A stretch of DNA of 64,000 nt. It comes from Escherichia coli (GTDB lineage: Bacteria > Pseudomonadota > Gammaproteobacteria > Enterobacterales > Enterobacteriaceae). Made by a program: the position numbers. Shown piece by piece: positions 6,001-9,000 of the stretch (its first letter is position 1; each line of letters starts with the position of its first letter). The stretch lies in NCBI RefSeq assembly GCF_003790525.1, contig NZ_CP033632.1; one strand, 5' to 3'.

Positions 6001-9000
6001 GCGTCCTTATATCGTTTCTAAGCTGGACTTTGCTTATCAGTTCTGCTGCGACATGGGCTATGCCATTGATATCCGGATCAACGAATGGTTGATGCCAAAC
6101 TTCCAGCCGTTGGCCATTTTCCGCGAGTTCCAGCCGGAAGGTTGGGTAGAGTTCTTCCATGAATTGATCTGTAAAGAGATGGAAAGCCGCCGCCCGGAAC
6201 TGGTCCGTCGAGTTGAGTGGGCGCAAGAGGTTATGTTGGCAGAGGCAGAGCTGCCGTTCGAACCGGAATTTATTGATGATCTGGCAGCTAAAGGGCTGCA
6301 TACCCTGTTTGATGTGGTTACCCGCCGTCATGAGCAGTTGGTTGTCGAATTGGGTTTAGAGGAAACAGCGGCAAGAAGACTTCTCGATGTTTGCTATGCA
6401 CGTAGCGATGCATGGGAAAAAGAGAACGGCGGCACTATTTACGTTCGCTGACAGTTACAGTGTCACTTTTAATGCTGGTGGAGTGCGCCCACCAGCATTT
6501 TTTTCGTCCAATGAGGAGGGCATTTGAGTATTTTCAATAAACACGCACACCAGGAACGTCCGTATATCGTCATAGTTGATATTGATGGAACAATATCAGA
6601 GGCAACTGAAGACAGACTGCATTTGCTTCCGCCACCAGGTAAAGGTGCATTAACAAAGGACTGGAACGAGTTTAATCTCGCCTGTGACACTGATACTCCC
6701 ATAACTCCAGTTATTGATATTGTGCGCCAGTTATTTAACGTTTACACGGTCTGGTTTGTAACCGGGCGCTGTGAGATCGCAAGGGATAAAACACGAGCCT
6801 GGCTGCGGAAGTACGTAACAAACGGGGCTGAGCCTTTGCTATCTATGCGTCCTGCCACCGATGACAGAAATGACGGCCCAGCAAAGATTGATCTCCTTAA
6901 GAAAATTGGTCTAAGTAAAATCGCGTTCGCGCTGGAAGATAAGATTGAAGTGGCGCGTGTTTTCAGGAGGCACGGCGTGCTTACGTTAATGGTCAGGGAG
7001 TATGAAAACGCGCTTCTCCACCAACAATAATTGCTCTAATAAATATTGATTTTTAAAACAGAGAAAGTGAAAATAAAAACATGCCGCAAGGCGCGGCATG
7101 TATCCAATCAATCACAGGAGCTGAAAATATGAACACGGCATTCAAAATCATTATGGCCGCGATCTATTTCTGGCTGTTCTCTATCACTTTTGGCGGAATC
7201 GTCGCACATGGGTAAGGGGGATGCATGAAAGGCGAAGTGAAAGAGCGCGGCATGATTTTTAACGATGAGATGGTCCTGGCAATTCTTGGCGGGAATAAAA
7301 CACAGACTCGCAGGATTGTTGAAGAAAAATTCTATGGACGGGCAGTGGCCGCAGAGTTGCTTGCCAAGCATTGTCCATATGGTCAACCGGGCGATCGTAT
7401 TTGGGTTCGCGAAACCTACCGGGTACATGGCAAAGCGACGGACGTCGCAACGCTGGTTTATCGCGCAAGCGTGCGTAACTCCTGGACAGAACAAACGCAC
7501 CGGGTTCCGGTCGAGGTTTGTAATAAACCAGTATCAGAAAAGTGGACGCCATCAATTCACATGCCGCGCTGGGCATCGCGCATTCTTCTGGAAATTACCA
7601 ACGTGCGCGTTGAGTGGTTGAACGATATCAGCGAATGTGATGCAAGGGCTGAGGGCGCACCAACAGAATCGACCCTCATTGGCGATAAGCATTACCCAGG
7701 TTTCCGTAGCCTATGGAAATCAATTTATGGCGAAGATAGTTGGAACGCTAATCCTTGGGTGTGGGTAATAGAGTTTGAGCGTATTCAGGGGGCAACCAGT
7801 GAGTGAGTCAAAATGCCAAATTAATGGCAACAAGATAGAGCCGTGCGCGGCGTTGGCACAATCCCTGGAGCATGACGCTGAATACACGACGCGAAAAGGT
7901 CTGCTGAAATACAAAATCTATAACCATGAATTAATTCATTCACAAGACCTGATCATGCTGCGGTCTGGTGAATTTTCTAAATCGCCTATTCGAGTTTCAT
8001 TTTGCCCGTTCTGTGGTGAAAGTCTGAAAACGTGGGAAGCGGAGGCAACCAGTGAATAACCGCTTTTACATGATGTGCTTGCGTGAAACTGTGGGTAATA
8101 ACGCCTCATTCCATTGCCATAACGGCAATGGTTACAGTTCTGATATCGATCGCGCTCATGTTTACACGCTGGAAGAAGCCCAAAAAGCCTGGAATTGTGG
8201 GCGAGATATCGATCAGCCTGTTTGCGCTGATAGCGTGGATGCAATGGCTGTGTGGCACGTTGATTGCCAGTACATCCCCACAGAAAGCCTGATTGAGTCA
8301 GATTGCACTGCGTATGTGGCCTACAAAAAAGGTAGCTGGAACGGCAACGATGTTTACTGGCTTCAACACGGTGGATTGCCAACAGATGACTTCAGTAAAG
8401 CGACCATCTTTAGCGTCGCCAACAAAAACGAACCAGGAATAGTTTGGTTGCCATTTTCCATTGCTGATGCAGCAAAGCGCCGGACGTTCAATATCAATAA
8501 CTTTAACCGCAGAACAATGGTTCAGGGCGCAGGGTTGGTCATGCCTGACTGGTTGAAAGAGCAGAACAGAAGAAAGAAGTCGCGAAGCGGGAAGGTGCGT
8601 TGGAATTGTCCGCATTGCGGAAAAATAACCTGGCAGTACAGCCCATATGATTTTGAAGGCTGTAGTGATTACAACTGTGAAGGATGGCGAGAATGACAAT
8701 TGACTATCAGGTACTGCGTGAGGCGGCAGAAAAGGCAACACCAGACGAATGGGTCGCATTTATTTCGACGGATACTGGTACTTATGCGGTGCACACGCCC
8801 GGTGATGAACGATGTGAAGACGTTATCAAATGGACCGGCTTTGATGGACAGAAAAATGCAGAGAACAACGCTCGTTATGTTGCCGCGTTCAACCCAAAGG
8901 TTGCACTGGAGCTGCTTGGTGAAATTAAGCGCCTGGAGGACACAAATATTGATGCTATGTGTCGAATTGCAGAGCTTGAGACTAATCTCGCGGCGCTGGC

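What the first reader, a model, noticed from the sequence alone, without database searches (positions are those of the whole stretch)
7129..7215. Unannotated 28-aa hydrophobic peptide directly downstream of a C1 operator
A good RBS and ATG open a short ORF encoding MNTAFKIIMAAIYFWLFSITFGGIVAHG, immediately after the best operator match (7030-7046) and a hairpin. It could be a small membrane peptide expressed on derepression.
Basis: inference. Interest (0 to 1): 0.3.

Follow-up and report, generated by a model that had tools for sequence, protein, structure and literature searches.

The report
Conserved small membrane-protein gene in P1 phages
A 28-codon gene for a tiny membrane-spanning protein sits first in a repressor-controlled early operon of P1/P7-type phages; the reference annotations miss it, but it is conserved across the wider P1 family, so it is probably real, with unknown function.

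Summary
ORF 7129-7215 (MNTAFKIIMAAIYFWLFSITFGGIVAHG) follows AGGAG (7116-7120), a perfect 8-bp hairpin (7080-7100) and the C1 operator known as Op88/OpmgT in P1 and Op(hea) in P7 (7030-7046). The window is 99.6% identical to P7.

The frame is intact in all 76 P1-type viral contigs that contain it. A single uninterrupted tblastn match covers at least 80% of the peptide in 870 of 872 plasmid hits.

Four more distant lineages have the same layout: Cronobacter phage JK004, Salmonella plasmids and two metagenome lineages, with the neighbouring PmgS about 70% identical. Each has operator, -35/-10, stem-loop, CAATCA...GGAG, then an ATG opening a hydrophobic ORF of 46-53 aa. K6, A11 and W15 are invariant, F5 and Y13 nearly so. 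Synonymous sites are saturated and second codon positions change least. The stem-loop has a different sequence in each lineage but still pairs.

No Pfam, PHROG, NCBIfam, PADLOC or PDB relative exists.

Best reading: a genuine single-pass inner-membrane microprotein, the first cistron of a C1-repressed early transcript. Expression, toxicity and function are untested. It is a new member of a known kind, of moderate interest.

The parts
7030..7046 (+). C1 repressor operator (P1 Op88/OpmgT; P7 Op(hea)), ATTGCTCTAATAAATAT
   Evidence: It has 1 mismatch to the consensus; the window holds 9 operator-like sites against 0.29 expected. It is annotated as a C1 protein_bind feature in P7 and P1. The 17-mer is identical in JK004, the Salmonella plasmids, L018 and L019-21.
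7046..7074 (+). Predicted sigma-70 promoter: -35 TTGATT (7046-7051), 17-nt spacer, -10 GAAAAT (7069-7074). It corresponds to P1pmgT of the P1 record.
   Evidence: The P1 annotation maps here by offset. The same -35 / 17 nt / -10 geometry occurs in the other lineages: AAGAAT, AATAAT, AAAATT. It matches only 8 of 12 consensus positions and was not reported by the scan. The promoter and the TSS near 7081 are therefore inferred, not shown.
7080..7100 (+). Stem-loop CATGCCGC-AAGGC-GCGGCATG at the predicted 5' end of the mRNA. On the minus strand it is followed by a T-run (7078-7069) and scores as terminator-like.
   Evidence: The first 32 nt fold at -14.2 kcal/mol, z = -4.4. A stem-loop starts 3-5 nt after the -10 hexamer in all 5 lineages with different sequences, and 7 of 8 stem pairs show at least 2 canonical pair types. 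The T-run is absent in the other lineages.
7104..7120 (+). Conserved leader motif CCAATCAATCAC (7104-7115) followed by Shine-Dalgarno AGGAG (7116-7120)
   Evidence: CAATCA(ATCA)YNGGAGC is conserved in all 5 lineages. The spacing to the ATG is 8 nt here and 5 nt in the others. In 70 P1-type loci, 4 of the 28 leader and SD positions vary.
7129..7215 (+). Small ORF of 28 codons plus TAA: MNTAFKIIMAAIYFWLFSITFGGIVAHG, a predicted single transmembrane helix
   Evidence: Searches show the ORF. Homologues of 46-53 aa occupy the same slot in 4 other lineages. pS is 0.6-0.8 against pN 0.25-0.46, and second codon positions change least. The best 19-residue Kyte-Doolittle window scores 2.1. A helix is predicted for residues 2-27 of the homologue. 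The ORF is intact in 76 of 76 viral contigs.
7212..7219 (.). Cluster of rearrangement junctions at the 3' end of the ORF
   Evidence: An IS1 end follows 7212 (P0014; IS1 end sequence seen in L004). Five different downstream DNAs follow GGGTA at 7214 (L010/11, L012, L013, L022 and P0011). The hsdR-type and P7/P1-type cargo diverge after 7219.
7216..7806 (+). Next cistron, upf86.8 of P7: SD GGGGGA at 7216-7221, ATG at 7225, 193 aa, unknown function
   Evidence: There is no significant Pfam hit. Its first ~56 nt are shared with P1 pmgT, then the two diverge.

Best explanation
The ORF is a real gene for a 28-residue single-pass inner-membrane microprotein. It is the first cistron of the early transcription unit that C1 represses at operator Op88.

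Proposed mechanism, step by step:
1. In a lysogen, C1 sits on 7030-7046, which abuts or overlaps the -35 box. The operator is shown; repression of this particular promoter is inferred.
2. When C1 is inactivated or absent (induction or infection), sigma-70 RNA polymerase starts near 7081. This is inferred from a promoter geometry conserved in five lineages.
3. The transcript begins with a stable stem-loop whose pairing, not its sequence, is conserved. That is shown. It most likely protects the 5' end from decay, which is inferred from the known behaviour of 5'-terminal stem-loops in E. coli mRNAs.
4. Ribosomes bind AGGAG and translate 28 codons. This is inferred from conservation of the SD, the start codon and the reading frame, and from coding-type substitutions.
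5. The peptide inserts into the inner membrane as one helix, with K6 on the cytoplasmic side and the C-terminus outside. This is inferred.
6. It acts within the membrane early in lytic growth. The helix is the conserved part: K6, A11 and W15 are invariant, F5 and Y13 nearly so, and residues 18, 22 and 23 are small or polar. The C-terminal tail (0-29 residues) is replaceable. I therefore favour specific helix-helix contact with a host or phage membrane protein over non-specific membrane damage. This last step is the weakest.

I put the gene being real and translated at about 0.85. The stated confidence covers the whole chain including the mode of action.
For: - **Anatomy:**. The operator is annotated as Op88/Op(hea) in P1 and P7.
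- **Frame in close relatives:** all 76 P1-type viral contigs that contain the ORF have it intact. In 870 of 872 plasmid hits a single uninterrupted tblastn match covers at least 80% of the peptide.
- **Distant lineages:** the same syntenic slot (after pmgR-pmgS, with or without pap) and the same layout occur in 4 lineages whose PmgS is 68-71% identical. These are JK004, Salmonella plasmids, L018 and L019-21.
- **Protein alignment:** M1, F5, K6, A11, Y13 and W15 are invariant in A2, with conservative hydrophobic exchanges elsewhere. P0025/L019, found later, has I5 and F13.
- **Substitution pattern:** pS 0.59-0.82 against pN 0.25-0.46. Differences by codon position are 9/4/14, 17/6/12 and 10/2/14. 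The other two frames contain stops.
- **Start codon:** the 44-aa upstream extension is not open in the other lineages, so the conserved start is the 28-aa one.
- **Hairpin:** 7 of 8 pairs covary, and the hairpin keeps a fixed distance from the -10 hexamer and from the ATG.
- **Stand-alone persistence:** in the hsd-type P1-like loci fetched (L006-L008) the ORF is the only co-directional ORF behind the operator and is intact. The 20 viral contigs with the same post-stop junction sequence also keep it intact.
- **Junctions:** rearrangement junctions pile up at its last codon and stop codon rather than inside it. This is what selection for an intact gene would produce.
- **Structure and rarity:** a helix is predicted for residues 2-27. 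The combination of hydrophobicity and SD is rare in the window.
Against: - There is no direct evidence of transcription start, translation, membrane location or phenotype. No paper mentioning this ORF was found.
- The promoter is weak by consensus, 8 of 12, and was not reported.
- Within the P1-type population most segregating sites in the ORF are non-synonymous (about 9-10, against 3-4 synonymous). These include G22D, G23D and L16Q, although all are rare.
- Codons 1-19 show no third-position variation at all, while pap third positions vary at 0.39 per site. This points to an additional or alternative nucleotide-level constraint that the protein hypothesis does not explain.
- The P1-type protein lacks the tail present in every other lineage, so the tail-less form could be a partly degenerate version.
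- Disrupted copies exist (IS insertions, frameshifts: P0007, P0019-21, P0024, P0026, P0027). The gene is therefore dispensable at least for plasmid maintenance.
- No partner protein is known.
Confidence: 0.5

Rival explanations
1. The gene and its regulation are as in the best explanation, but the peptide is a non-specific membrane-damaging toxin. On derepression it depolarises or permeabilises the inner membrane, like the repressor-controlled small toxins TisB and DinQ or a holin-like factor, and so helps host shut-off or lysis timing.
For: The peptide is small and very hydrophobic, with one helix. It is kept tightly off in the lysogen by a repressor operator. The mRNA has a structured 5' end, as many type I toxin mRNAs do (the comparison is from memory). 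In the P1-type a minus-strand terminator-like hairpin could end a cis-antisense RNA.
Against: There is no sequence relation to any toxin or holin family in Pfam, NCBIfam, PHROGs or PADLOC. There is no conserved minus-strand promoter, and the T-run is missing in the other lineages. Position-specific conservation (K6, A11, W15 invariant, F5 and Y13 nearly so, small residues at 18, 22 and 23) suggests a specific contact. The gene is not next to lysis genes. It lacks the charged C-terminal domain typical of holins. Toxicity is untested.
Confidence: 0.2
2. It is a translated leader ORF. What matters is that ribosomes traverse it, loading or coupling translation of the next gene or keeping the mRNA covered. 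The peptide itself has no function.
For: The ORF is the first reading frame of the operon. Its stop overlaps the next start in three lineages: ATGA in JK004 and L019-21, TGATG in L018. The gap is 6 nt in the Salmonella plasmids and 9 nt here, and the next SD sits at the ORF end. The tail sequence is freely replaceable.
Against: Hydrophobic character and specific residues are kept while synonymous sites are saturated, which a pure spacer ORF would not show. In hsd-type P1-like plasmids no co-directional gene follows, yet the ORF is intact. Native codons do not alter accessibility of the initiation region compared with synonymous recodings.
Confidence: 0.12
3. The conserved thing is nucleic acid, not protein. 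The segment 7080-7185 would be a functional RNA or DNA element. Candidates are a structured 5' leader, the target of a regulatory RNA, or a cis-antisense RNA that ends at the minus-strand terminator (7101 to 7070). The ORF would be incidental or secondary.
For: In 70 P1-type loci the block from the hairpin to codon 19 has 9 segregating sites in 106 nt, and none at the 19 third positions. The operator and promoter spacer have 24 in 50, and pap third positions 0.39 per site. The minus strand has a good terminator-like hairpin plus T-run, and its fold has z = -2.67.
Against: Between lineages the DNA of the ORF is strongly diverged (third positions differ at 50-58%) while the protein features persist. 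There is no conserved minus-strand promoter. The T-run is absent in the other lineages. No Rfam family reaches its threshold; the best is GcvB at 20 bits against a gathering score of 42. A structure sequestering the initiation region is not better than in recoded controls. A dual function, protein plus RNA, remains possible.
Confidence: 0.1
4. It is a chance ORF in a conserved intergenic region.
For: ORFs of this length are common: 554 ATG ORFs of 25-60 aa in the window. All close relatives are 93-100% identical, so their intact frame carries little weight on its own.
Against: The frame, start, SD and hydrophobic pattern are kept in four lineages whose ORF DNA differs at 38-49% of positions over the first 24 codons. 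The alternative frames are closed.
Confidence: 0.03

Closest known systems
LexA-controlled small hydrophobic peptides TisB (29 aa) and DinQ (27 aa) of E. coli (type I toxins; recalled from memory)
   Same: Size, a single hydrophobic helix, silence under a DNA-binding repressor, and release when that repressor is inactivated.
   Different: There is no sequence similarity. No antisense or trans RNA antitoxin was found. The repressor is phage C1, not LexA. The ORF is the first gene of a polycistronic phage operon. Toxicity is untested.
Other C1-repressed early functions of P1 aimed at the host, such as Icd (73 aa, blocks FtsZ; PMC11897509) and KilA
   Same: Small phage proteins expressed only after C1 derepression from operator-controlled promoters.
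   Different: Those are soluble proteins with known or partly known targets. This one is a bare transmembrane helix with no known target, and it is not annotated in the P1 or P7 reference records.
Bacterial small membrane-protein regulators (MgrB 47 aa, MgtR, AcrZ; for example PMC6813294 and bioRxiv 10.1101/2022.12.22.521624)
   Same: Single-pass microproteins whose function lies in helix-helix contact with a larger membrane protein. This matches the pattern seen here: position-specific conservation inside the helix and a dispensable tail.
   Different: Those are chromosomal and host-regulated. There is no homology, and a partner has not been identified for this peptide.
5'-terminal stabilising stem-loops of E. 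coli mRNAs (ompA-type; recalled from memory)
   Same: A stable hairpin lies at the very start of the predicted transcript, with pairing conserved by compensatory changes.
   Different: The TSS is not mapped, so the terminal position is inferred. In the P1-type the same hairpin reads as a terminator on the opposite strand.

Membership tests
P1 C1 regulon (operator-controlled early transcription units) | A 17-bp asymmetric operator matching ATTGCTCTAATAAATTT | tested here: met
   7030-7046 has 1 mismatch. It is annotated as Op88/OpmgT in P1 and Op(hea) in P7.
P1 C1 regulon (operator-controlled early transcription units) | The operator overlaps a functional promoter that C1 represses | tested here: inconclusive
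   The -35 box TTGATT overlaps the operator by one base and is followed by a 17-nt spacer and GAAAAT. This geometry is conserved in 5 lineages, but it matches only 8 of 12 consensus positions and is missed by the scan. Neither a TSS nor repression was measured here.
Type I toxin-antitoxin toxins (Hok, Ldr, TisB, Ibs, ShoB, DinQ, Zor) | A small (<60 aa) hydrophobic peptide with one transmembrane helix | tested here: met
   The peptide is 28 aa with a best 19-residue KD window of 2.1. A helix is predicted in the homologue.
Type I toxin-antitoxin toxins (Hok, Ldr, TisB, Ibs, ShoB, DinQ, Zor) | An antisense RNA antitoxin with its own promoter, overlapping or adjacent | tested here: not met
   The only promoter-like minus-strand site (7282-7255) is specific to the window and its sequence is altered in P1 and P7. 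None was found in L015, and the sites in L014 are not conserved. There is no Rfam antitoxin match. A non-canonical promoter cannot be excluded.
Type I toxin-antitoxin toxins (Hok, Ldr, TisB, Ibs, ShoB, DinQ, Zor) | Sequence membership in a described toxin family | tested here: not met
   No Pfam, NCBIfam, PHROG or PADLOC hit.
Type I toxin-antitoxin toxins (Hok, Ldr, TisB, Ibs, ShoB, DinQ, Zor) | Growth arrest or membrane damage on expression | not testable with these tools
   This needs induced expression in vivo.
Holins | A membrane protein with a charged C-terminal domain, encoded next to an endolysin or lysis cassette | tested here: not met
   The C-terminus is AHG with no charged tail. The neighbours are pap, upf86.8 or pmgT, or hsdR, and no lysis genes are present.
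Regulatory leader or coupling uORF | The stop codon overlaps or abuts the start of the regulated gene | tested here: inconclusive
   There is an overlap in 3 lineages, a 6-nt gap in the Salmonella plasmids and a 9-nt gap here. In hsd-type plasmids no downstream gene follows.
Regulatory leader or coupling uORF | The peptide sequence is itself unconstrained | tested here: not met
   Hydrophobic pattern and key residues (K6, A11, W15 invariant; F5, Y13 nearly so) persist with saturated synonymous sites.
5'-terminal stabiliser hairpin | A stable stem-loop within a few nucleotides of the mRNA 5' end | tested here: inconclusive
   The hairpin begins 3-5 nt after the -10 hexamer in all lineages and its stem covaries. 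The 5' end itself is not mapped.
Cleavable Sec signal peptide (considered for the longer homologues) | An n-h-c architecture with a short h-region (7-15 residues) and an AxA cleavage site followed by a mature domain | tested here: inconclusive
   The Salmonella and L018 forms carry AKA or VKA after the helix. The hydrophobic stretch is about 18-19 residues, which is anchor-like, and the P1-type has no mature part at all. No signal-peptide predictor was available.

The most novel reading that the evidence does not exclude
The 5' part of the unit (7080-7185: hairpin, leader and codons 1-19) may be a dual-function module. It would encode the membrane peptide and also carry an RNA-level function, for example a cis-antisense RNA ending at the minus-strand terminator or a target site for a regulatory RNA. 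That would make it a repressor-gated, type-I-toxin-like cassette. The cassette marks the fixed left border of a cargo-exchange hot spot in P1-like phage-plasmids. The cargo includes type I restriction systems, and the cassette's footprint was carried into about 280 IncF plasmids.
Probability: 0.12. Interest if true: 0.65.

Novelty: new member of a known kind. Interest (0 to 1): 0.36.

Why it matters
P1 is one of the most thoroughly annotated phages, and P1-like phage-plasmids are common. The intact unit occurs in 563 of 5,426 complete E. coli genomes.

A conserved, repressor-gated membrane microprotein at the head of an early operon would be a missing player in the first minutes of P1 lytic growth. 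It also adds a family with no described relatives to the growing list of phage small proteins.

The unit defines the stable left edge of a region where P1-like elements swap cargo, including type I restriction-modification genes. Knowing what it does could explain why that edge is so sharply preserved.

On the practical side, reference annotations of P1 and P7 should add the gene. The SJ46 (44-aa) and JK004 (internal start) annotations should have their starts corrected.

Tried and rejected
1. **Homology searches for the peptide.** The word-indexed search of 5.8 billion proteins found only near-identical copies. A profile search of 1.84 billion representatives found only this small family plus one repetitive junk protein. 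Pfam, PHROGs, NCBIfam, PADLOC and PDB sequences gave nothing.
2. **The 44-aa start (ATG 7081) used in SJ46.** Rejected. That ATG lies inside the hairpin at the predicted 5' end, has no SD, and the extension is not open in other lineages.
3. **The hairpin as a plus-strand terminator of the pap transcript.** Rejected because no U-run follows it in any lineage.
4. **The hairpin as terminator of a conserved cis-antisense RNA.** Not supported. The T-run occurs only in the P1-type and there is no conserved minus-strand promoter. The weak GcvB match (20 bits against a threshold of 42) reflects only the hairpin and T-run.
5. **An mRNA structure sequestering the SD and AUG as the reason for missing synonymous variation.** The MFE fold pairs the initiation region with codons 11-17. 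However, the opening energy equals that of 300 synonymous recodings, and the other lineages show no consistent effect. Rejected.
6. **A trans-acting complementary RNA elsewhere in the window.** No convincing complementarity to the leader was found.
7. **Literature.** No paper found mentions this ORF or an Op88 transcript. The P1 genome paper is not held in the library.
8. **Functional context from neighbours.** Pfam on the downstream genes gave only sub-threshold hits. The 104-aa neighbour in other lineages is unrelated to P1 PmgU.
9. **One alignment set aside.** They proved inexact. A3 was not used for any conclusion.
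Full report
**What is there.** The window is a P7-type punavirus or phage-plasmid. Positions 6500-7900 are 99.6% identical to phage P7 (AF503408) and 96% identical to P1 over the shared part. 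One E. coli plasmid matches the 178-nt unit exactly.

Reading 7000-7230 gives this order:
- the stop of pap;
- the C1 operator ATTGCTCTAATAAATAT (7030-7046);
- TTGATT (7046-7051), a 17-nt spacer, then GAAAAT (7069-7074);
- five A residues;
- a perfect hairpin CATGCCGC-AAGGC-GCGGCATG (7080-7100);
- CCAATCAATCAC (7104-7115) and AGGAG (7116-7120);
- eight bases, then ATG (7129), 28 codons and TAA (7213-7215);
- GGGGGA and the ATG of the next gene at 7225.

The operator is annotated as Op(hea) in P7 and as OpmgT (formerly Op88) in P1. The P1 record also predicts the promoters that map onto the hexamers above. Neither record annotates the ORF. SJ46 annotates a 44-aa version, and a few other records call it hypothetical. 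'Unannotated' holds for the reference genomes and for most RefSeq plasmids.

**More than chance?** On its own, no. The window has 554 ATG ORFs of 25-60 aa. Only two of them combine a hydrophobic 19-residue stretch this strong with an SD-like motif. The real evidence is comparative.

**Close relatives.** The unit occurs in 19 phage records, 867 plasmids and 884 of 5,426 complete E. coli genomes, always at 90-100% identity.
- By tblastn, a single uninterrupted match covers at least 80% of the peptide in 870 of 872 plasmid hits.
- A synteny-based sample of 80 IMG/VR contigs was fetched through the neighbouring pmgS gene. The ORF is present in 76 of them and intact in all 76. Sixty are identical and the rest carry one or two substitutions.
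- A few disrupted copies exist, from IS insertions and frameshifts.

**Distant relatives decide the matter.** I looked downstream of pmgS and pap in more distant P1-family elements. Four further lineages have PmgS only 68-71% identical to the window:
- Cronobacter phage JK004;
- Salmonella plasmids;
- two lineages recovered by a profile search of 1.84 billion proteins and traced back to contigs.

All of them share the identical operator and a -35/17 nt/-10 arrangement. All have a stem-loop starting 3-5 nt after the -10 hexamer and the motif CAATCA(ATCA)YNGGAGC. In each an ATG then opens a hydrophobic ORF of 46-53 aa.

The peptides align without gaps over the first ~24 residues. M1, F5, K6, A11, Y13 and W15 are invariant in alignment A2, with conservative hydrophobic exchanges elsewhere. 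The later-found L019 lineage has I5 and F13. Their DNA differs at 38-49% of positions:
- the proportion of synonymous differences is 0.59-0.82, against 0.25-0.46 for non-synonymous;
- second codon positions change least (4, 6 and 2 differences in 24 codons);
- the other two frames carry stops.

The 44-aa extension is not open in these lineages. AlphaFold predicts one helix for residues 2-27 of the Salmonella homologue, with pLDDT 84-90 over the first 20 residues, and a poorly defined tail.

**The hairpin.** Each lineage has a stable stem-loop (-8 to -14 kcal/mol) at the same distance from the -10 hexamer and from the ATG, but with a different sequence. Seven of the eight stem pairs show two or three canonical pair types. 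Within the P1-type population the two stem variants seen in more than one locus are C-to-T changes that keep a G-U pair.
- No lineage has a U-run after the hairpin on the plus strand, so it is not a terminator for the pap transcript.
- On the minus strand the P1-type has a T-run and scores as a terminator. That tail is absent elsewhere.
- The reading that fits all lineages is a stem-loop at the extreme 5' end of the operator-controlled mRNA. In E. coli such structures are known to stabilise transcripts (from memory). The TSS itself is inferred.

**The tail and the junctions.** The P1-type peptide is essentially the helix alone. The other lineages add 20-29 residues. In three of them the stop overlaps the start of the next gene (ATGA or TGATG).

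In the P1-type the 3' end of the ORF is a cluster of rearrangement junctions:
- an IS1 end directly after codon 28 (P0014);
- five different downstream DNAs joined after GGGTA, which turns TAA into TAY and gives unrelated extensions (L010/11, L012, L013, L022, P0011);
- two cargo types, P1/P7 genes or a convergent type I hsdR, diverging after TAAGGGG.

The donor contexts show only 1-3 nt of microhomology. This sample is biased toward junctions that alter the protein, because I found several of them through protein variants. Even so, the pile-up at the last codon and stop codon, rather than inside the ORF, is what selection for an intact gene would produce.

In the hsd-type plasmids fetched (L006-L008) the ORF is the only co-directional reading frame behind the operator. 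It is intact there, and also in the 20 sampled contigs with the same post-stop junction sequence.

**What does not fit.** Diversity in 70 P1-type loci is distributed oddly.

| Region | Segregating sites |
|---|---|
| pap third positions | 0.39 per site |
| operator | 9 of 17 |
| promoter spacer | 15 of 33 |
| hairpin, leader and codons 1-19 combined | 9 of 106 |
| third positions of codons 1-19 | 0 of 19 |

Most polymorphisms in the ORF are rare non-synonymous changes. This suggests either a nucleotide-level constraint on 7080-7185 or a recent sweep of that block.
- I tested one explanation, an mRNA fold that hides the SD and AUG. The opening energy of the native sequence equals that of 300 synonymous recodings, and the other lineages show no consistent effect.
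- A cis-antisense RNA would fit the block and the minus-strand terminator, but no conserved promoter supports it.
- I leave this unexplained. It feeds the 'novel case'.

**Comparison with what is known.** No family in Pfam, PHROGs, NCBIfam, PADLOC or the PDB matches. No paper found mentions the ORF.
- Functionally the nearest analogues are repressor-gated small hydrophobic peptides (TisB, DinQ) and small membrane-protein regulators (MgrB, MgtR, AcrZ).
- Membership of the type I toxin class fails on the antitoxin RNA and on sequence.
- Membership of the holin class fails on context and C-terminus.
- The leader-uORF reading fails on peptide conservation.
- The ORF is best filed as a new, uncharacterised family of phage membrane microproteins within the C1 regulon.

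**Verdict.** It is very probably a genuine gene (about 0.85). Its function is unknown. My committed mechanism is an early-expressed inner-membrane helix acting through specific helix contacts, and its last step is plainly inferential. Novelty: a new member of a known kind. Interest is moderate. The nucleotide-level conservation and the junction hot spot give some upside.

Noticed in passing
window 7212-7219; loci L010-L013, L022, L004-L008: The last codon and stop codon of the small ORF are a cluster of rearrangement junctions. There is an IS1 end after 7212, five unrelated downstream DNAs after GGGTA (7214), and hsdR-type versus P1/P7-type cargo after 7219. Donor sequences show only 1-3 nt of microhomology (TA or GTA).
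   Followed up: partly
L004, L005 (IncF plasmids); window 7136-7219: About 280 conjugative F-type plasmids carry an 84-bp remnant of the ORF. It lacks the start and promoter, is cut by IS1 at 7135/7136, and lies next to the 3' end of a type I hsdR. This is the 'sequence downstream of R124/3 hsdR' noted in the P1 record. It implies that the type I R-M cassette moved between P1-like phage-plasmids and IncF plasmids.
   Followed up: partly
L006-L008 (P1-like plasmids), equivalent to window 7030-7300: In many P1-like plasmids the Op88 promoter and small ORF point head-on at a convergent hsdR about 80 nt away. Derepression would send transcription antisense into hsdR. The minus-strand hairpin plus T-run is the only terminator-like site behind hsdR in that span.
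   Followed up: no
window 7030-7185 versus 70 IMG/VR loci (L028-L107): The C1 operator and promoter spacer are unusually polymorphic (24 of 50 positions vary, many as single-locus operator variants). The transcribed block from the hairpin to codon 19 is nearly invariant, with no third-position variation.
   Followed up: partly
window 63131-63158, downstream of loxP at 62934-62967: There is a second copy of the leader and initiation motif (CCAATCAATCAG-AGG-TGAAAAATG, against CCAATCAATCAC-AGGAGCTGAAAATATG at 7104-7131). It lies in front of another ORF (MGYSTAKVSTHLELEKN...), a few hundred bases from the operator-like sites at 62789-62888.
   Followed up: no
window 18976-18881 and 18814-18635, minus strand: Two SD-preceded hydrophobic small ORFs are each followed by a GC hairpin. 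One is 31 aa (MINLLIIVLRAVAALANALIAVLELIRQFID), whose C-terminal half recalls DinQ from memory. The other is 59 aa. This stretch has no megablast match in the phage collection, so the window is not colinear with P7 here.
   Followed up: partly
window 7225-7280; L003 2726-2781: P7 upf86.8 and P1 pmgT share their SD, start and about the first 18 codons, then become unrelated. This is a second mosaic junction, inside a gene.
   Followed up: no
L002 2082-2216 (SJ46); L014 3132-3248 (JK004 gene_94): Existing annotations of this gene probably use wrong starts. SJ46 starts at an ATG inside the 5' hairpin (44 aa). JK004 starts at an internal ATG (38 aa). Neither uses the conserved SD-preceded ATG.
   Followed up: yes
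L015-L017, L018, L019-L021: The more distant lineages lack pap, so the operator follows pmgS directly. There the small ORF is coupled to a ~104-aa protein with weak winged-helix matches (HTH_24, E = 0.001). That protein has no counterpart at this position in P1 or P7.
   Followed up: partly
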